A stretch of 64,000 nucleotides of DNA, from the IMG/VR virus record IMGVR_UViG_3300025141_000048, one strand, 5' to 3'. Below the pieces are notes generated by a model that saw only the letters and a list, made by a program, of their open reading frames with translations, searched no databases and was not told the DNA's origin. Within the stretch, counting starts at the first letter, position 1. Each line of letters opens with the position of its first letter. The translations under genes were made by a program, and so were the position numbers. The stretch comes from a virus. This document shows positions 3,263 through 47,908 of the stretch, piece after piece.

Positions 3263-3925
3263 ATGGGTTTGCTCAAGACAATCAAAAACGTTTTCAGGGA
3301 AAAGGCCGAACAAGCCGACAAGGCTCTGGCCGATCCGATCCGTGATGGTAAGTTTGCCATCGAGGATAGCAAGAAACAGATCGCTGAAATGCGCCGGGCT
3401 CTCGCCCAGTTCATGGCGACGAACAAAAAGATGGAAGGCGATCAAGCAGCGGCGAAAGCCGAAGTTGCTAAGTGGCAGAACATCGCTGTCGCAGCGGCCA
3501 AGGATGGCAATGAAGATGCGGCTCGCACGGCTTTGGAAAACAAGGGCCGCAACAAGGATGCCGCTGACAAACTGAAACAGGACATCGAACGCAACAATCG
3601 TGAGATCGAAAAGATCAAGAAACAGATCGATGTTGCGACTCGAAAGATTGCCGATGCGGACAGCAAACATTCGCAGCTTGCCGCCCGAAAGAAAGCGGCA
3701 GACGTTCGAGCCCAACTGTCGGCGGCATCGTCCAAGTTCAGTACCGATGGAGGTGCCTTGGCATCGCTTGACGATTTCGAGAACGAAGTCGAAGCCAAGG
3801 AAAACGAAATCGACGCCATGGAAGAACTCGATGGCGGCGGCGATGAAGACCTTGTCGAACAGTATGGAAAAGGTGCTGGTAAGGTAGATGATGAACTGGC
3901 GGCTTTGATGGCCAAGAGTGGCTGA
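3263..3925 (+). CDS. pspA: PspA/IM30 family phage-shock protein
   Basis: MGLLKTIKNVF...ALADPIRD...; all-helical 220 aa, EDAARTALENK, C-terminal VDDELAALMAK. Confidence 0.9.
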   Translation: MGLLKTIKNVFREKAEQADKALADPIRDGKFAIEDSKKQIAEMRRALAQFMATNKKMEGDQAAAKAEVAKWQNIAVAAAKDGNEDAARTALENKGRNKDAADKLKQDIERNNREIEKIKKQIDVATRKIADADSKHSQLAARKKAADVRAQLSAASSKFSTDGGALASLDDFENEVEAKENEIDAMEELDGGGDEDLVEQYGKGAGKVDDELAALMAKSG

Positions 3926-10148: not shown

Positions 10149-10835
10149 ATGGCGAGATTTAACGAACACTTCTTTGACAAAATAGACAATGAACTAAAGG
10201 CATATTGGTTAGGGTTTATATGGGCAGACGGTTCTATCACTTGCAATAATGGCACTTATTCATTTGCCATACATTTACAAGACAGAGATCATTATCATCT
10301 TGATATCTTGGATAGAGATTTATCTTATGAAGGCAGCCGTAACGGAGGTAAGTATTCGTGGTTCTCTAAATATATGATTGGAAGAATAATGCATTTGGGT
10401 CTCGTGCCAGATAAAAGTCATAACGAAGTTTCAATTCCACGCATGCCTAAGCGTCTTATTCATCATTTTTGGCGAGGAGTTTTTGATGGGGACGGCATGA
10501 TAACCACAAGATCTAAAAAATGTCTTGATGATTTTAGATTCTCAATTTGTGGTACTCACACTACTGTGACGTCATTCAGCGAATGGATGTTGAAGTTTGG
10601 TATCAAAAAACAAAAGATTGCTAAAGCAAAAAATCAATATGGCGAAACACATGCATGGAAATTTGAGGTGGGAGGAAATCGACAAGTAGCAGCATTAATG
10701 AGTCAGTTATACCATCGATCTACTCGATATCTTCTTCGTAAATATAAGATTGCTTGCGAATTGCATACAATAAACGGTGAAATAAGCCCCTCTTTTAAGC
10801 GTAAGTATATTGACAAACCATTCAAAATACGGTAG
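10149..10835 (+). CDS. Free-standing two-motif LAGLIDADG homing endonuclease
   Basis: AYWLGFIWADGSI and FWRGVFDGDGMI; C-terminal LLRKY. Confidence 0.9.
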   Translation: MARFNEHFFDKIDNELKAYWLGFIWADGSITCNNGTYSFAIHLQDRDHYHLDILDRDLSYEGSRNGGKYSWFSKYMIGRIMHLGLVPDKSHNEVSIPRMPKRLIHHFWRGVFDGDGMITTRSKKCLDDFRFSICGTHTTVTSFSEWMLKFGIKKQKIAKAKNQYGETHAWKFEVGGNRQVAALMSQLYHRSTRYLLRKYKIACELHTINGEISPSFKRKYIDKPFKIR

Positions 10836-38281: not shown

Positions 38282-38367
38282 TCCACAGTACCCGAGTGGT
38301 AGCAGGGGGCGGACTGTTAATCCGTTAGGCGTAAGCCTCGTCGTTGGTTCGAATCCAACCTGTGGAG
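38282..38367 (+). tRNA. tRNA-Asn(GUU) with long variable arm
   Basis: TCCACAG/CTGTGGA-G; loop CTGTTAA; V-arm AGGC-GTAA-GCCT. Confidence 0.9.
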
Positions 38368-38437
38368 TTAAAAGAAGGAGATCTCAAACTTCGTTGGAAA
38401 GTTAACAAGACATGTTAATTATCTAACGGAGATCGAG

Positions 38438-38986
38438 ATGATCCAGAAGTCAGAAAAGGTAAAGAAATGGCGTAAAGAAACGAAGAAACGTATTGTCGAG
38501 TCCATGGGAGGCGGATGCGTATGTTGCGGATACACACGATGCTTGAGAGCATTGGATCTGCATCACCTGGATCCTGAGGAAAAGGAATTTGGATTTGGCA
38601 GGATAATGGCGAATCCCATACGATGGGAAAAGATCGTCGAAGAATTGAGGAAATGTGTTCTTGTATGCAAGCGATGTCATGCCGAAATCCATGATGGGAT
38701 TCTAAAGATCCCGGAAAATGCGACCAGGTTTGATGAATCGTTTACCACGTACAAGAACCAAAAGAAAGAAGCTTGTCCGGTATGCGGGAATGATAAACCG
38801 CTGCATCTGATTACTTGTTCGAAGTCGTGTGCAGCAAAGAGGGCAGGTAAAGTCAATTGGGATGCAATTGACTTGAAAGGATTGTTGAAAGAAAAGACCA
38901 GCATCGTAAAGATAGCTGAACGGATAGGGGTTTCAGATACCTCTGTTTACAAACGAATGAGGAAATTGGGACTGGAACGCTGTTAA
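38438..38986 (+). CDS. HNH homing endonuclease with C-terminal HTH
   Basis: GGGCVCCGY…ALDLHHLDP…KCVLVCKRCHAEIH. Confidence 0.9.
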   Translation: MIQKSEKVKKWRKETKKRIVESMGGGCVCCGYTRCLRALDLHHLDPEEKEFGFGRIMANPIRWEKIVEELRKCVLVCKRCHAEIHDGILKIPENATRFDESFTTYKNQKKEACPVCGNDKPLHLITCSKSCAAKRAGKVNWDAIDLKGLLKEKTSIVKIAERIGVSDTSVYKRMRKLGLERC

Positions 38987-39022
38987 CCAAGAAAGATGCT
39001 GGTTCGAATCCAGTCCTTGGAA
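38980..39022 (+). pseudogene. 3' half of a tRNA-Asn(GUU)
   Basis: CTGTTAA-CCAAG…GCTGG-TTCGAAT-CCAGT-CCTTGGA; overlaps the HNH stop. Confidence 0.75.
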
Positions 39023-39092
39023 TTAGGAGTTGAGTCATGCGTTATGACAGTTCAGAAGTTCGATACAAACCGAGTTCATATCTTTGAGGTAT

Positions 39093-39178
39093 GGATCGGT
39101 AGTCAAGCGGTTGAAGACATCGGACTTTTAATCCGTCAGGCGTAAGCCTCATCGCAGGTTCGAATCCTGTCCGGTCCA
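39093..39178 (+). tRNA. tRNA-Lys(UUU) with long variable arm
   Basis: GGATCGG/CCGGTCC-A; loop CTTTTAA; V-arm AGGC-GTAA-GCCT. Confidence 0.88.
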
Positions 39179-39211
39179 CTTTGGATTCCGGCTCTTTGAT
39201 AAGTAAAGATT

Positions 39212-41455: not shown

Positions 41456-41552
41456 CCGCCGGTAGTTTAATTGGTAAAACCCCAAATTTATAATTTGGTA
41501 AAACGCCTCGCTGATTACGGGGTAAGTCCTGGTTCGAGTCCAGGTCGGCGGA
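41456..41552 (+). tRNA. 97 nt tRNA-Ile with two anticodon arms (UAU at 41489-91, GAU at 41513-15)
   Basis: CCGCCGG/TCGGCGG-A; CCAAA-TTTATAA-TTTGG and CCTCG-CTGATTA-CGGGG; intact D and T arms. Confidence 0.8.
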
Positions 41553-42002: not shown

Positions 42003-42030
42003 GGGGCTATAGCTCAATTTTGGGAGAGCA
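42003..42030 (+). pseudogene. 5' half of a tRNA-Ala
   Basis: GGGGCTATAGCTCAATTTTGGGAGAGCA, ending at the anticodon stem. Confidence 0.75.
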
Positions 42031-42105
42031 TTGGGAAGCCGCTGCTAAGATCGTGGCTTGGGTTCGTTTGGAGAACGGGATTAGAATCACCGAGTATCAT
42101 GTGTT

Positions 42106-42519
42106 ATGAGGTTGATGAATCTGGAAACTGAAGAGGTGATTCTGATACGGGTTATTTCTCAGGAAAAGGATGGTATCTGGGGTCACATTGTGGCTTCGAA
42201 TGGCACCGTGGATCGTCAACCTGAGTTCTTTCCGATCATTGAATGGAGAGAGTTTACTGTGATTGGCCTTGGAGAGCAATCTTCTCGGTTTAAGGCGAAA
42301 AGAGAGCAAGCAGTTACATACAAAGGTGGGAAGTGCGAACGTTGTAACTACGACAGATGTATGCAGGCATTAGAATTTCATCATCCAGATCCATCATCTA
42401 AGGATCCAGATTACAGCAGAATCAAATCATGGTCATGGGATAGGGTGAAGAAAGAGATTGACAAATGCATATTGCTTTGTAGTATTTGTCATCGAGAAAA
42501 ACATGCGGGGATATGGTAA
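42106..42519 (+). CDS. HNH homing endonuclease
   Basis: YKGGKCERCNY…ALEFHHPDP…KCILLCSICHREKH. Confidence 0.9.
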   Translation: MRLMNLETEEVILIRVISQEKDGIWGHIVASNGTVDRQPEFFPIIEWREFTVIGLGEQSSRFKAKREQAVTYKGGKCERCNYDRCMQALEFHHPDPSSKDPDYSRIKSWSWDRVKKEIDKCILLCSICHREKHAGIW

Positions 42520-42578
42520 AATTGGGATCACATCGCCTTTGCACGGCGGAATTCGGGGTTCGAGTCCCCGTATCTCCA
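42507..42578 (+). tRNA. tRNA-Ala(UGC), diverged; overlaps the HNH stop
   Basis: GGGGATA/TATCTCC-A (G3-U70); loop TTTGCAC. Confidence 0.88.
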
Positions 42579-42583
42579 CTTAA

Positions 42584-43098: not shown

Positions 43099-43135
43099 GC
43101 CTCCGTAGCTCAATTGGTAGAGCATTCCGCTTACG
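43099..43135 (+). pseudogene. 5' half of a tRNA-Val(UAC)
   Basis: GCCTCCG-TA-GCTC…GAGC-A-TTCCG-CTTACG, then unrelated sequence. Confidence 0.7.
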
Positions 43136-43205
43136 TTCTGGACTTGGTTGTCTGCGTTGTGGATTACTGGTATAGTCCATGGCAGTTCTAGTAGTAGTTC
43201 TTAAC

Positions 43206-43278
43206 GCCAAGTAGCTCAGTTTAATTTGGAAGAGCGGTGGAGTGAAATCCCACAGGTCGCAGGTGGGAGACCTTGGTA
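43206..43278 (+). pseudogene. Degenerate tRNA-Phe(GAA), damaged T arm
   Basis: Anticodon arm GTGGA-GTGAAAT-CCCAC; T loop missing. Confidence 0.6.
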
Positions 43279-43338
43279 GAAGAAGCGAAGAAATGCAGCC
43301 TCTTGTGTTGTCGATGTCATAGAGAAATAGAGAACGAA

Positions 43339-43411
43339 GGCTAGTAAGCTAATCTGGTGAAAGCGTCCGCCTGAAGAGTGGAAGAGCCCGGCTCGAAACC
43401 GGGACTAGCCA
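43339..43411 (+). tRNA. tRNA-Phe(GAA)
   Basis: GGCTAGT/ACTAGCC-A; loop CTGAAGA; T loop CTCGAAA. Confidence 0.88.
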
Positions 43412-43508
43412 CTTAACATACGTGTATCGGGGTTACTCCCTTACAACTGCCAGGCATGTCCCTGTTGCGTATGTTTAACAGAGAGAAGGCAGCCTCTTTC
43501 TCTGTTAT

Positions 43509-44089: not shown

Positions 44090-44163
44090 TGCGGAGTAGA
44101 GCAGTTAGGTAGCTCGGGTGGCTCATAACCACCAGGTCACAGGTTCGAATCCTGTCTCCGCTA
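44090..44163 (+). tRNA. tRNA-fMet-like (CAU)
   Basis: U1:U72 mismatch, A11:U24; anticodon stem GGTGG/CCACC (two of the three usual G-C pairs). Confidence 0.85.
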
Positions 44164-44327
44164 TTTGCTCGTCTGCGGTAGCTTTTTGGATCCTCTGACG
44201 GACGAGTAGAGTCATATTAGACCGAAAGGTCGAAACAGGGTGTCTGACTTTGTGTCGGTAAGGCCACCGTTCGCAAAGTTGGCATAATAACTTTGAAGCC
44301 TTAGGCTCAGGTGGAGTTCCCTATTTT
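44164..44327 (+). ncRNA. Candidate multi-stem non-coding RNA
   Basis: Six complementary stems (see findings); no ORF. Confidence 0.45.
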
Positions 44328-44357
44328 TTCCATAACCCAAATTTGCCTTGATATAAT
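44328..44357 (+). promoter_or_regulatory. CCATAG-class promoter 10/28
   Basis: TTCCATAA-CCCAAATTTGCCT-TGATATAAT. Confidence 0.75.
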
Positions 44358-44363
44358 AACATC

Positions 44364-44675
44364 ATGAGCGAAGACCAAGACCATCTCGAAGAAGAAAACG
44401 ATTACACCGACATTCCACTGCATTTATGCACCGTTCTCGATTACGACATCCTTATTATTTCTGATCTTGACTTCGTTCAAGAACAAGGTTTTAACACCTT
44501 GGTTCAACTTGTCTTTGCTGATCAAGATGGTGGTCAAACGACAATTCATATGACAGAAGCTGAGTCTGGAGCTTTGTGCATCAACATGATGAGGTTGCAT
44601 GCTGAAGTCTTGGATGACGATAATCCTAAGAAACAAGTGATGCTTGACTTCTTGGATGAACACTTCACGATATAA
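44364..44675 (+). CDS. Acidic hypothetical protein
   Basis: Leaderless after a CCATAG promoter. Confidence 0.6.
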   Translation: MSEDQDHLEEENDYTDIPLHLCTVLDYDILIISDLDFVQEQGFNTLVQLVFADQDGGQTTIHMTEAESGALCINMMRLHAEVLDDDNPKKQVMLDFLDEHFTI

Positions 44676-44677
44676 AT

Positions 44678-44708
44678 GCACCTGTAGCTCAATTGGAGAG
44701 AGCAAGAG
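44678..44708 (+). pseudogene. 5' half of an interrupted tRNA (Arg-UCU inferred)
   Basis: GCACCTG-TA-GCTC-AATTGGAGA-GAGC-A-AGAG; acceptor complementary to 45513-45519. Confidence 0.8.
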
Positions 44709-44781
44709 TCCCGCTAACTCAATTGGACAGAGTATCGCACTTCTAATGCGAAAGTTCCAGGTTCGAGTCCTGGGCGGGATA
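44708..44781 (+). tRNA. tRNA-Arg(UCU), nested inside the split tRNA
   Basis: GTCCCGC/GCGGGAT-A; TCGCA-CTTCTAA-TGCGA. Confidence 0.92.
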
Positions 44782-44860
44782 TTTTCGAACTATCAAAAAG
44801 GAATTTAGATTGAGAGTTCGAATGTGATAGTAACTTTATTCTTTATAAGGAGTTGCTATC

Positions 44861-45484
44861 ATGCATAAGACGGCCAAGAAACGAGCAGAACAAAAGCGAA
44901 AGCTTATCGAATTACTAGGAGGCAAATGCGAAGTATGTGGATATAATCGCAATGCGGCTGCCCTGGATTTTCATCACCGTGATCCAGACGAGAAAGACGC
45001 TTTTATTGGACATCTCATTAATTTCCACAAGTTTGAGCAGGCTTATGAAGAAGCGAAGAAATGCACTATTCTTTGCAAAGTATGCCATACAGAACATCAC
45101 AATCCAGACCTGGAGATCAAGGTTTCGGATAATGGGGATGTTCATTATATTAATCAGGAGCTTGATAGCATCGTCAAGACCTGCTCTGAGTGCGGGGAAT
45201 ATTCGGGAGGTATGACTTTCTGTTCTCAAGAATGTGCAAAACTTTCGCAACGTAAAGTAAAAAACAGACCATCTGAAAAAGAATTGAATGAATTGCTTAA
45301 GTCAATGAGTAAATGTGCGATTGGGAAGAAATTCGGAGTCAGCGAGGCTGCGATAAGGAAGTGGGTTGAGGCATCTAAACAGGCTAACGAATCGATCAAA
45401 AAAGCGTTTGCACCAGTTACCAAAGGATTGAATGAACATAACAAAAGGATGAGAGAATTAGGTCAAAATATTAAGCTATCTTGA
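44861..45484 (+). CDS. HNH homing endonuclease with C-terminal Zn-finger/HTH
   Basis: LGGKCEVCGY…ALDFHHRDP…KCTILCKVCHTEHH; GVSEAAIRKW. Confidence 0.9.
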   Translation: MHKTAKKRAEQKRKLIELLGGKCEVCGYNRNAAALDFHHRDPDEKDAFIGHLINFHKFEQAYEEAKKCTILCKVCHTEHHNPDLEIKVSDNGDVHYINQELDSIVKTCSECGEYSGGMTFCSQECAKLSQRKVKNRPSEKELNELLKSMSKCAIGKKFGVSEAAIRKWVEASKQANESIKKAFAPVTKGLNEHNKRMRELGQNIKLS

Positions 45485-45485
45485 T

Positions 45486-45520
45486 TCTCAAGGTTGAGGG
45501 TTCGAGTCCTTCCAGGTGTA
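45486..45520 (+). pseudogene. 3' half of the interrupted tRNA
   Basis: TCTCA-AGGTT-GAGGG-TTCGAGT-CCTTC-CAGGTGT-A. Confidence 0.8.
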
Positions 45521-45546
45521 CTTTGTCTATTTTAACAGGCCATTAA

Positions 45547-45620
45547 GCCCTTGTAGCTCAGTAGGATAGAGCAGAGTTTTCCTAAAGCTAAGGTCGCAAG
45601 TTCGAATCTTGCCAGGGGCA
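45547..45620 (+). tRNA. tRNA-Arg(CCU)
   Basis: GCCCTTG/CAGGGGC-A; loop TTCCTAA. Confidence 0.88.
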
Positions 45621-45697
45621 TTACATTTCTGGTATAATACCGTCAAGGAAAGAGAAGATCAGATAGCCACTTTCATGGAGGATTTGGTTACTCGACC

Positions 45698-47299: not shown

Positions 47300-47593
47300 A
47301 TGCTGAAGATCTCTCAAGAACGTATCGAAGAACTTTGTCTTCAGATCATGGCGGACCCAGCCAAGATCGGTGGATCTATTAATTGGTTCACCCAAGAGAT
47401 CCAAGAGTACTTCAACGTTGATCTCAATTCTGAGGAGACTTTGGATGATCATCCCAGATGGAGGTCAAAGGTTTATCGTACTCTTCAGTCTCTGGTAAAG
47501 AAGAAGTCGGCGCAAAGAGAAAGAGTTTACGGCGGCACCGGTTTTCTTCGACCGGGCTGGTACTTCGTGTATGGTCTCTATAAGGACTCGTAG
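47300..47593 (+). CDS. Hypothetical protein (possible winged helix)
   Basis: Leaderless; WRSKVYRTLQSLVKK helix. Confidence 0.55.
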   Translation: MLKISQERIEELCLQIMADPAKIGGSINWFTQEIQEYFNVDLNSEETLDDHPRWRSKVYRTLQSLVKKKSAQRERVYGGTGFLRPGWYFVYGLYKDS

Positions 47594-47614
47594 CTCAGGG
47601 GTCAGAGCAGGGCG
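47584..47614 (+). pseudogene. Orphan tRNA 5' half
   Basis: GGACTCG-TA-GCTC-AGGGGTCA-GAGC-A-GGGCG. Confidence 0.65.
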
Positions 47615-47642
47615 GGTAGCTGAGAGGCTTAGCAGTTGATAA

Positions 47643-47729
47643 GGGAGTATGCCCTGAGTGGTCGAAAGGAACTGACTCATAATCGGTCGGCGTAACAGCC
47701 CATCGCAGGTTCGAATCCTGCTGCTCCCA
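47643..47729 (+). tRNA. tRNA(CAU) (elongator Met or Ile2) with long variable arm
   Basis: GGGAGTA/TGCTCCC-A; ACTGA-CTCATAA-TCGGT; V-arm GGC-GTAACA-GCC. Confidence 0.85.
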
Positions 47730-47879
47730 TTATTGCAAAAGTGGATGATTTTTATAGCGAGAATCAGATCGTTCATCTTCGATTTCAATATGACAGTTGC
47801 TGCAAAGAAGATCGCACTTCTTTGCTTCTTTTAAGACATCTTTCCAGGCGTGGCTGGTGAGATGTCTACCGGGTCCATT

Positions 47880-47908
47880 TTCCATTGCCGATAATTTTCT
47901 GATATAAT
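47880..47908 (+). promoter_or_regulatory. CCATAG-class promoter 13/28
   Basis: TTCCATTG-CCGATAATTTTC-TGATATAAT. Confidence 0.8.

What the first reader, a model, noticed from the sequence alone, without database searches (positions are those of the whole stretch)
44678..45520. tRNA-replacing homing cassette: [new tRNA-Arg(UCU) + HNH] inserted into the anticodon loop of an older tRNA
Seen: 5' half (44678-708) and 3' half (45486-520) have complementary acceptor strands (GCACCTG/CAGGTGT) and matching anticodon-stem remnants (GAG/CTC) about 780 nt apart; the anticodon loop is missing. Between them lie a complete, sequence-diverged tRNA-Arg(UCU) and an HNH of the same family as the two other tRNA-linked HNHs; Arg(CCU) follows. 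No group I core is evident, and rejoining would not restore a loop. Established: free-standing homing endonucleases spread in phage tRNA regions (e.g. T4 SegB) and need a cleavage-resistant allele. Inference: a minimal mobile element that destroys its target tRNA gene and pays for the insertion with its own immune isoacceptor. Three independent instances here suggest a general, apparently undescribed element class.
Basis: partly seen in the sequence, partly recalled or inferred. Interest (0 to 1): 0.85.

Follow-up and report, generated by a model that had tools for sequence, protein, structure and literature searches.

The report
Nuclease cassette that overwrites tRNA-Arg
A selfish nuclease gene travelling with its own arginine tRNA gene has landed inside this marine giant phage's older arginine tRNA gene, leaving its two dead halves on either side; the same trick recurs at many tRNA genes of this phage and its relatives, so such cassettes seem to drive turnover of phage tRNA genes.

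Summary
Positions 1-30 (44678-44708) and 39-73 (45486-45520) of one tRNA flank a 777-nt insert. Only positions 31-38 are missing. The insert holds a complete tRNA-Arg(UCU), two hairpins and an intact HNH gene.

The module tRNA-Arg(UCU) / hairpins / HNH recurs in two unrelated metagenome contigs at 61-62% protein identity. These three HNHs form a supported clade.

No empty allele of this site exists in the data. The sister phage carries a different, decayed Arg cassette of the same HNH clade there. That sister does supply empty or informative alleles for sibling cassettes (Ala-UGC, Met-CAU, Lys-UUU, Ile-GAU, Lys-CUU, Phe-GAA). In every one, the old and new tRNA share the anticodon, and where a relic of the old gene survives, its break lies in the anticodon arm. 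Two nuclease families (HNH and PD-(D/E)XK) are used.

The old gene is Arg by similarity. UCU is likely but not proven.

Best reading: a free-standing homing-endonuclease cassette that carries its own replacement tRNA. Cleavage and immunity are untested.

Closest known are T4 SegB and the fungal mitochondrial mORFs. I class it as a new variant of a known kind. Earlier notes of this scan report the same layout on at least 27 other genomes.

The parts
44364..44675 (+). Left flank: ORF of 103 aa. Homology to the sister phage ends near its stop codon (blastn alignment runs to 44668).
   Evidence: blastn 44090-44668 = L016 7729-8305, 86.7%; 86% identical protein P0010
44678..44707 (+). 5' relic of the old tRNA (positions 1-29). 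G44708 doubles as old position 30 and new position 1.
   Evidence: profile 2-26, E 0.048
44708..44781 (+). Complete replacement tRNA-Arg(UCU). G1-U72, A20, A73. 64% identical to the old gene over the 66 comparable bases.
   Evidence: ARAGORN; Rfam 64.8 bits; alignment
44784..44822 (+). Hairpin 1 (TTCGAACT...AGTTCGAA) between tRNA and HNH. Conserved in the L014 and L015 modules.
   Evidence: fold (both hairpins folded together: -25.1 kcal/mol, z -4.8)
44824..44862 (+). Hairpin 2. Its 3' arm holds the ribosome-binding site AAGGAG and the first bases of the ATG. The equivalent hairpin, with different stem sequence, is present in L014 and L015.
   Evidence: fold
44861..45484 (+). HNH endonuclease gene, 207 aa: HNH core, Cys4 zinc ribbon and C-terminal helix-turn-helix. 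It has about 37 extra C-terminal residues (45371-45481) that relatives lack. The stop TGA lies 1 nt before the 3' relic.
   Evidence: PHROG HNH families E 3e-20; alignment with invariant C23 C26 H38 H39 C68 C72 C75 H76 H80; identical on at least 14 contigs
45486..45520 (+). 3' relic of the old tRNA (positions 39-73)
   Evidence: profile 39-74, E 6e-4
45547..45620 (+). Resident tRNA-Arg(CCU). Homology to the sister phage resumes in its T loop (from 45598).
42003..42579 (+). Sibling cassette Ala: 5' relic 42003-42030 (positions 1-26), HNH 42106-42519, new tRNA-Ala(UGC) 42507-42579 overlapping the stop codon.
   Evidence: sister L016 has an intact tRNA-Ala(UGC) at 3562-3636 at the orthologous place
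47584..47885 (.). Sibling cassette Met: 5' relic 47584-47614 (positions 1-31), long-arm tRNA(CAU) 47643-47729, HNH remnant on the minus strand 47730-47885, last 8 nt of the old tRNA 47870-47877.
   Evidence: sister L016 has an intact tRNA-Met(CAU) at 10537-10609
38380..39157 (+). Sibling cassette at the Asn/Lys junction: HNH 38438-38986, a foreign 3' relic of a tRNA-Asn 38980-39022, and the 5' two thirds of the long-arm tRNA-Lys(UUU). It replaces bases 4-52 of the sister's tRNA-Lys.
43099..43344 (+). Stubs of two further cassettes that are complete in the sister phage: 5' relic of tRNA-Lys(CUU) 43099-43133, and an HNH C-terminal remnant 43246-43344 abutting tRNA-Phe 43339-43412.

Best explanation
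A free-standing HNH homing-endonuclease cassette that carries its own tRNA-Arg(UCU) has integrated into a double-strand break in the anticodon arm of the phage's resident tRNA-Arg gene, most likely also UCU.

Shown:
- The old gene is split with only 8 nt lost.
- The insert starts exactly at base 1 of a complete, diverged tRNA-Arg(UCU) and ends just past an intact HNH gene.
- The same tRNA / hairpins / HNH module exists in unrelated genomes.
- Sister-phage comparisons show that such cassettes replace a tRNA of the same anticodon at other sites.

Inferred:
- The HNH recognises the DNA of the anticodon arm of sensitive tRNA-Arg(UCU) alleles and cuts there.
- The linked tRNA escapes because its anticodon stem, D stem and acceptor stem differ.
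- Between related phages the cassette spreads by ordinary recombinational repair (homing with co-conversion).
- The half-tRNA scars mark an entry with little or no flanking homology (illegitimate or microhomology repair).
- The host phage tolerates the loss because the cassette supplies the same decoding function.
- The second spacer hairpin keeps HNH translation low by hiding the ribosome-binding site.
- Afterwards the nuclease gene decays, as seen in the remnants at 43246-43344 and 47730-47885 and in the sister's Arg site, and the site can be invaded again.
For: Anatomy of the halves and the insert.

The HNH is intact and identical on at least 14 contigs from many marine studies.

The module is conserved. 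L014 and L015 carry tRNA-Arg(UCU) 67-70 nt upstream of 61-62% identical HNHs, in otherwise unrelated contexts and without flanking halves. The three HNHs form a clade with 98/93 support. The two spacer hairpins are kept with changed stem sequences.

The sister phage has, at the same site, an Arg(UCU)-like gene, an Arg(CCU)-like gene and the last 20 codons of an Arg-clade HNH, fused to the T loop of the resident Arg(CCU).

Sibling cassettes with empty or informative alleles:
- Ala(UGC) and Met(CAU), filled in the window and empty in the sister.
- Lys(UUU) and Ile(GAU) with PD-(D/E)XK genes, filled in the sister and empty in the window.
- Lys(CUU) and Phe(GAA) in the sister, where the old anticodon loop survives and equals the new one.

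Breakpoints fall at positions 26/27, 30/31, 31/32 and 38/39.

Identity of the old gene:
- 49 of 76 tRNAs sharing its acceptor stem are Arg.
- The viral-contig tRNA-Arg(UCU) in L110/L111 is 59/66 identical, including stem AGAG/TCTC.
- A metagenome contig joins both halves through TACC-CTTCTAA-GGTA, an intact Arg(UCU).
- The closest annotated phage hits fetched are all Arg(UCU).
- The window keeps Arg(ACG) and Arg(UCG) elsewhere, and the sister also has a UCU+CCU pair at this site.

Precedent: T4 SegB cuts within tRNA genes and spreads itself with flanking tRNA genes (PMC2330249).
Against: - No empty allele of this very site was found. Only two lineages are known, the window-type population is clonal, exact-pattern scans found no intact copy, and read laying found none.
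- The anticodon of the old gene is inferred. Cellular tRNA-Arg(ACG) genes match the halves about as well overall (58 of 66), and one abundant marine tRNA-Arg(ACG) differs by 1 in 32 from the 3' relic.
- No biochemical evidence shows that this HNH cuts tRNA genes or spares the new one.
- The donor of this cassette is unknown, so the junction mechanism cannot be read.
- Structure comparison gave only weak HNH and HTH matches.
- Some tRNA relics in these arrays have no nuclease gene beside them now.
Confidence: 0.75

Rival explanations
1. Recombination scar with a bystander nuclease. tRNA arrays rearrange by recombination between conserved tRNA segments. The halves would be a by-product of such an exchange, and the HNH gene merely sits in the swapped segment without having cut this tRNA gene.
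For: Several junctions between window and sister lie in universally conserved tRNA segments: T loop GTTCGAATC at Arg(CCU) and Lys. The arrays hold many relics, some without a neighbouring nuclease gene.
Against: The target's junctions are not in conserved segments. The left one is in the anticodon stem and abuts base 1 of the new tRNA. Relics with a same-anticodon replacement lie beside a nuclease gene or its remnant at 8 or more sites, with two unrelated nuclease families. The tRNA-HNH module is conserved across unrelated contexts.
Confidence: 0.12
2. Same cassette, but the destroyed gene was another arginine isoacceptor (for example ACG-like). The cassette would then have added a new decoding capacity rather than replacing like with like.
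For: Overall identity of the halves to cellular tRNA-Arg(ACG) genes equals that to the best Arg(UCU). An abundant marine tRNA-Arg(ACG) matches the 3' relic at 31/32.
Against: The anticodon-stem remnant AGAG/TCTC matches only the Arg(UCU) relative. Intact Arg(ACG) and Arg(UCG) genes exist elsewhere in the array and are orthologous to the sister's. The sister has a UCU+CCU pair at this site. In all six sibling cassettes that can be read, old equals new.
Confidence: 0.08
3. Split or intron-bearing tRNA. The 777-nt insert is removed from the transcript, or the halves pair in trans, so that the old tRNA is still made.
For: The two halves keep perfect acceptor, D and T stems, and bacterial tRNA introns do sit in anticodon loops.
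Against: No group I or II intron model matches. ARAGORN's intron mode does not call it. Rejoining lacks position 31 and the whole loop. The insert has its own tRNA and a gene with its own ribosome-binding site. The same module exists without halves in L014 and L015.
Confidence: 0.03

Closest known systems
Phage T4 SegB (GIY-YIG free-standing homing endonuclease in the tRNA gene cluster; PMC2330249) and the tRNA-Tyr+segB unit of T6 (PMC13096335)
   Same: The nuclease gene is embedded among phage tRNA genes. It cuts inside tRNA genes (preferred site in T2L tRNA-Asn). It spreads its own gene together with neighbouring tRNA genes at the expense of the recipient's markers. In T6 a unit of about 0.7 kb, 'tRNA + nuclease gene', behaves as one block.
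   Different: SegB is GIY-YIG, recognises the universal T-loop motif and sits between genes. No split target gene and no same-anticodon replacement were reported. Here the nuclease is HNH (or PD-(D/E)XK), the breaks lie in the anticodon arm, the target gene is destroyed, and the cassette supplies a complete diverged copy.
Mobile endonuclease ORFs (mORFs) of fungal mitochondria that carry a foreign copy of the displaced gene end (Allomyces atp6; Glomus atp6, atp9, cox2, nad3; PMC3630166)
   Same: An endonuclease gene inserts into an essential gene and brings a diverged replacement for the part it displaces. The native part remains downstream as an unused relic.
   Different: Those targets are protein genes in organelles, and only the C-terminal part is replaced, in frame. 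Here a whole tRNA gene is supplied and both ends of the old gene are stranded.
Other intronless homing endonucleases of T-even phages (SegE, SegF, SegG, MobE) and HEG-split genes (nrdA of phage Aeh1; 'fractured genes', PMC2677866). The nrdA case is from my own knowledge.
   Same: Free-standing nuclease next to or inside the gene it targets. Co-conversion of a resistant allele. Hairpins that hide the ribosome-binding site of the nuclease gene. Cycles of invasion and decay.
   Different: Those elements keep the target gene working through resistant polymorphisms, or through split products that reassemble. They do not carry a second complete gene.
Group I introns in bacterial tRNA anticodon loops (PMC3984707)
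   Same: An insertion in the anticodon region of a tRNA gene, often with a homing endonuclease ORF.
   Different: No ribozyme core here. Eight bases of the tRNA are missing, so splicing could not restore function.

Membership tests
Free-standing homing endonuclease gene (intronless homing) | Encodes a site-specific DNA endonuclease of a known HEG family | tested here: met
   PHROG HNH families 2255, 3106 and 35854, E 3e-20 to 2e-13. Invariant Cys4 and His residues. Pfam HNH is below threshold for this copy.
Free-standing homing endonuclease gene (intronless homing) | Patchy presence: related genomes differ by presence or absence of the gene at an otherwise homologous site | tested here: inconclusive
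   For this site, the window has the intact gene and the sister only a 20-codon remnant of the same clade. No empty allele was found. For sibling cassettes, clear filled and empty pairs exist.
Free-standing homing endonuclease gene (intronless homing) | Cuts the allele that lacks it, near its own insertion site, and spares its own allele | not testable with these tools
   Only indirect evidence: breaks of old tRNAs cluster at positions 26-39, and the new tRNA differs in all five anticodon-stem pairs.
Free-standing homing endonuclease gene (intronless homing) | Super-Mendelian inheritance in mixed infection, with co-conversion of flanks | not testable with these tools
   Uncultured phage. The mosaic boundaries at tRNA genes are consistent with it.
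Gene-replacing endonuclease element (mORF-like: carries a substitute for what it displaces) | A diverged, functional-looking copy of the displaced gene lies inside the insert, and the native part remains as a relic | tested here: met
   New tRNA-Arg(UCU) scores 64.8 bits and is 64% identical to the old gene. Both relics are present.
Gene-replacing endonuclease element (mORF-like: carries a substitute for what it displaces) | Replacement and displaced gene have the same function (same anticodon) | tested here: inconclusive
   Arg isotype is well supported. UCU is supported by the stem remnant, by position and by intact relatives, but the loop is gone. The feature is met in six of six sibling cassettes.
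Group I intron in a tRNA gene | Ribozyme core, and exons that rejoin to a complete tRNA | tested here: not met
   No Rfam intron match at E<=1. Eight nucleotides are missing. ARAGORN intron mode is negative.

The most novel reading that the evidence does not exclude
Two-gene 'nuclease + replacement tRNA' cassettes are a distinct, widespread kind of selfish element. Each lineage would be tuned to the anticodon-arm DNA of one tRNA species. They would be able to jump between unrelated phages (and, according to earlier scan notes, bacteria) by destroying the resident gene and substituting their own. On this reading they act as natural gene drives on tRNA genes, and they would be the main cause of the fast sequence turnover, odd architectures (long variable arms, rewired D arms) and relic litter of phage tRNA arrays. 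A possible side effect is diversification of tRNAs away from host anticodon nucleases.
Probability: 0.4. Interest if true: 0.8.

Novelty: new variant of a known kind. Interest (0 to 1): 0.68.

Why it matters
The locus gives a concrete, testable model for how homing endonucleases can invade an essential, single-function gene without an intron or intein: they bring a spare copy.

It explains why phage tRNA arrays are mosaic, why orthologous tRNAs of sister phages are far more diverged (about 60%) than their flanks (82-93%), and why the arrays are littered with half tRNAs.

The relics mark where the breaks lay, so target sites of a family of small HNH and PD-(D/E)XK nucleases can be predicted and tested. 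That may also be of use as a source of new sequence-specific nucleases.

It also bears on annotation. Half tRNAs beside nuclease genes are scars, not split or intron-containing genes.

Tried and rejected
- Exact and gapped pattern scans for an intact copy of the old tRNA found nothing specific. A looser acceptor-stem pattern found only unrelated genomes.
- INPHARED phages hold no relative of the region beyond single tRNAs.
- No whole genome is held for the window.
- The flanking genes (103 aa and 236 aa ORFs) have homologues in only one other lineage, so no third allele could be fetched.
- All window-type contigs are identical over 4.6 kb, so decay of the relics cannot be measured.
- A search for the donor, using a pattern from the new tRNA, found nothing in viral contigs.
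- Read laying found no cassette-free allele. It found only an intact tRNA-Arg(UCU) of another genome.
- PDB sequence search and Foldseek search (model pLDDT 76) gave no significant match. The weak top rows are HNH nucleases and HTH domains.
- ARAGORN with introns does not read the halves as one gene.
- MAFFT alignments of filled against empty sites were poor. Junctions were read from blastn coordinates and by eye.
- Rejected: intron or split-tRNA reading.

Full report
**1. What is there**

The window carries a tRNA array on the + strand (38.2-47.8 kb, 19 tRNAs by ARAGORN plus a tmRNA at 13.9 kb). It is interspersed with small ORFs.

- At 44678-44707 lies the 5' part of a tRNA: acceptor strand GCACCTG, TA, D arm GCTC-AATTGGAGA-GAGC, A26, AGA.
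- G44708 is both position 30 of that tRNA and base 1 of a complete tRNA-Arg(UCU) at 44708-44781.
- An 80-nt spacer follows, then a 207-aa ORF (44861-45484).
- One base after its TGA comes TCTCA-AGGTT-GAGGG-TTCGAGT-CCTTC-CAGGTGT-A (45486-45520). This is the 3' strand of an anticodon stem, a variable loop, a T arm, an acceptor strand and a discriminator.

The two pieces pair 7/7 in the acceptor stem (G1-U72). They have intact D and T stems and three complementary anticodon-stem pairs. Position 31 and the seven loop bases are absent.

A profile HMM of the arrays' own tRNAs finds the two pieces at exactly these coordinates: profile 2-26 with E 0.048, and profile 39-74 with E 6e-4. ARAGORN accepts the joined halves as a tRNA scaffold whatever the junction. 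tRNA-Arg(CCU) follows at 45547-45620.

**2. The insert is a conserved unit**

The ORF is an HNH endonuclease. It matches PHROG families 2255, 3106 and 35854 and has invariant Cys4 and His residues. A zinc ribbon and a C-terminal helix-turn-helix follow the core.

The identical protein sits on at least 14 marine metagenome contigs, the longest 338 kb, so this is a giant phage. The layout is the same on all of them and the sequence is 100% identical over 4.6 kb. Sixteen studies hold the stretch.

Two relatives of 61-62% identity were found on short contigs (L014, L015). Both lie 67-70 nt downstream of a tRNA-Arg(UCU), in otherwise unrelated surroundings and without flanking half tRNAs.

The three proteins form a clade with 98/93 support in a tree of 29 HNH domains.

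In all three modules the spacer folds into two hairpins. The second encloses the ribosome-binding site and start codon, with different stem sequences in each module. Hiding the ribosome-binding site in a hairpin is the usual way phage homing endonuclease genes are kept quiet; that statement is from my own knowledge.

The window's copy has about 37 extra C-terminal residues that run up to the junction with the 3' relic.

**3. Comparative evidence**

Only one other lineage shares the flanking genes: L016/L031, a Tara scaffold with flanks 82-93% identical.

At the Arg site the sister is not empty. After the stop of the 103-aa ORF come, in order:
- an aberrant Arg(UCU)-like gene;
- an aberrant Arg(CCU)-like gene;
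- the last 20 codons of an Arg-clade HNH (..GYGVSDTAIRKWAKSYELI*);
- directly after that, the T loop and 3' end of the window-type tRNA-Arg(CCU).

So the same site was invaded independently in both lineages by cassettes of the same HNH clade, and in the sister the nuclease has decayed.

Elsewhere the two phages serve as each other's empty alleles.

| Site | Filled in | Relics of the old gene | Nuclease | Evidence that old = new anticodon |
|---|---|---|---|---|
| Ala(UGC) | window | positions 1-26 | HNH; the new tRNA overlaps its stop | sister has intact Ala(UGC) |
| Met(CAU) | window | positions 1-31 and 66-73 | reversed HNH remnant; new tRNA has a long arm | sister has intact Met(CAU) |
| Lys(UUU) | sister | positions 1-26 | PD-(D/E)XK | window has intact Lys(UUU) |
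| Ile(GAU) | sister | none | PD-(D/E)XK | window has a different Ile(GAU) |
| Lys(CUU) | sister | 5' relic with loop CTCTTAA, and a 3' relic | HNH | old loop survives |
| Phe(GAA) | sister | positions 1-26 and 32-73, with loop TTGAAAA | HNH | old loop survives |

For the last two sites the window keeps only stubs (43099-43133 and 43246-43344). In all six readable cases the old and new tRNA have the same anticodon, and wherever a relic survives the break lies between positions 26 and 39.

The tRNA-Asn upstream sits in conserved flanks. What was overwritten is the sister-type tRNA-Lys, from base 4 to the T arm. The Asn 3' relic came in with the insert.

Relics beside HNH or PD-(D/E)XK genes also occur in unrelated IMG/VR arrays (L035, L141/L142, L146). 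About 24 of 80 viral loci with relatives of this HNH lie next to tRNA genes, often with the stop codon 9 nt inside the next tRNA.

**4. What the old gene was**

- Of 76 tRNAs in three collections that share its acceptor stem and the start of its D arm, 49 are Arg.
- The best intact relative is a tRNA-Arg(UCU) of viral contigs L110/L111. It is 59/66 identical and is the only one sharing the anticodon-stem remnant (AGAGA / TCTCT).
- A contig of one marine run joins both halves through TACC-CTTCTAA-GGTA, again Arg(UCU), in a foreign context.
- The four closest annotated phage hits that I fetched are all Arg(UCU).
- Arg(ACG) and Arg(UCG) exist intact elsewhere in the array. The sister also has a UCU+CCU pair at this site.
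- Against certainty: cellular Arg(ACG) genes match as well overall, and one matches the 3' relic at 31/32.

I conclude that the Arg isotype is firm and that UCU is likely, roughly 85-90%.

**5. Mechanism**

Shown: a same-isotype replacement unit sits in a nearly clean break of the old gene.

Inferred: the HNH cuts sensitive tRNA-Arg(UCU) genes in the anticodon arm, which is the only part of a tRNA gene that is specific to one species. The linked copy differs in all five anticodon-stem pairs and in the D and acceptor stems (64% identity), so it would escape.

Between related phages the cassette would spread by recombinational repair. The two-sided scar here indicates an entry with little flanking homology.

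The phage loses nothing because the decoding function is supplied by the insert. Later the nuclease gene decays, and three remnants are seen.

**6. Not an intron**

No intron model matches. Eight bases are missing. The insert has its own tRNA and its own translation signals. The module also exists without halves elsewhere.

**7. Relation to what is known**

T4 SegB cuts inside tRNA genes and spreads with its neighbouring tRNA genes (PMC2330249). In T6, tRNA-Tyr plus segB behaves as a 718-bp unit (PMC13096335). HNH genes next to tRNA arrays have been noted (PMC8421152).

Fungal mitochondrial mORFs bring a foreign copy of the gene end they displace and leave the native end as a relic (PMC3630166).

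I found no open-access paper describing half-tRNA / same-anticodon tRNA / nuclease cassettes. That search is limited to the held library.

Earlier notes of this scan report the same layout on at least 27 other genomes, including CPR bacteria and Acinetobacter and Pseudomonas phages. They are unchecked leads, not support.

**8. Verdict**

It is a new variant of free-standing homing-endonuclease elements: a complete replacement gene, a destroyed target, and more than one nuclease family. Confidence is 0.75. The enzymatic steps and the exact anticodon of the old gene remain to be shown.

Noticed in passing
window 38282-38367, 39093-39179, 47643-47729; also L001 1178-1267, L038 879-966, L031 5612-5693: tRNAs with Asn(GUU), Lys(UUU) and CAU anticodons carry long variable arms (82-90 nt genes). 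In bacteria such arms are normally confined to Leu, Ser and Tyr. Normal-length Lys(UUU) and Met(CAU) genes coexist in the window. Long-arm tRNA-Asn recurs in unrelated viral contigs.
   Followed up: partly
window 41456-41552: A 97-nt tRNA found by Rfam (56 bits) but not by ARAGORN, with anticodon loop TTTATAA (UAU, Ile) and a variable region of about 30 nt. Its orthologue in the sister is called tRNA-Phe(AAA), 96 nt, by ARAGORN.
   Followed up: no
L016 8317-8389 and 8394-8470: The sister's Arg(UCU)-like and Arg(CCU)-like genes lack a normal D arm. The CCU one has a D-loop-like stretch (GGGTAATTGGACAC) after the anticodon arm and scores only 29.8 bits. The UCU one is not called at all. They are either decaying or non-canonical tRNAs, and they resemble a 'rewired D arm' noted elsewhere by the scan.
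   Followed up: partly
L031 6512-6946, L016 4320-4736, L035 3748-4077: PD-(D/E)XK_5 (PF11645) genes occupy the same kind of slot as the HNH genes, beside a same-anticodon replacement tRNA. In L031 there is a 5' relic. In L035 relics lie on both sides of the PD-(D/E)XK gene plus tRNA-Thr(CGU).
   Followed up: partly
L001, L038-L045, L138; window 38282-38986: Many HNH relatives in unrelated viral contigs sit directly downstream of a tRNA-Asn(GUU). T4 SegB's preferred site is also in a tRNA-Asn gene.
   Followed up: partly
window 42507-42519; L035, L039-L044, L138-L143, L155: In compact HNH genes the stop codon lies 5-12 nt inside the next tRNA gene, most often 9. Nuclease and tRNA are therefore physically fused.
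   Followed up: partly
window 45490-45521 against runs X5 and X6: An abundant organism in several marine runs has a tRNA-Arg(ACG), followed by another tRNA, whose last 32 nt differ by one base from the 3' relic. This may be a clue to the origin of the old gene or to the host.
   Followed up: no
window 45609-45638: A strong sigma-70-like promoter (TTGCCA, 18 nt, TG-TATAAT; 11 of 12 matches) overlaps the 3' end of tRNA-Arg(CCU) and faces the next ORF. It is conserved in the sister.
   Followed up: no
L029 (Escherichia phage Paul, MN045231.1 68317-68936): A cultured coliphage has tRNA-Arg(UCU) followed 30 nt later by an annotated HNH endonuclease (SPO1-type). It is a possible laboratory model for tRNA-Arg-linked homing.
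   Followed up: no
window tRNAs against sister tRNAs (e.g. 38282-38367 vs L031 5612-5693; 40027-40101 vs L031 6382-6454): Positionally equivalent tRNAs of the two phages are only about 60% identical, while their flanks are 82-93% identical. tRNA bodies therefore turn over much faster than the surrounding DNA.
   Followed up: partly
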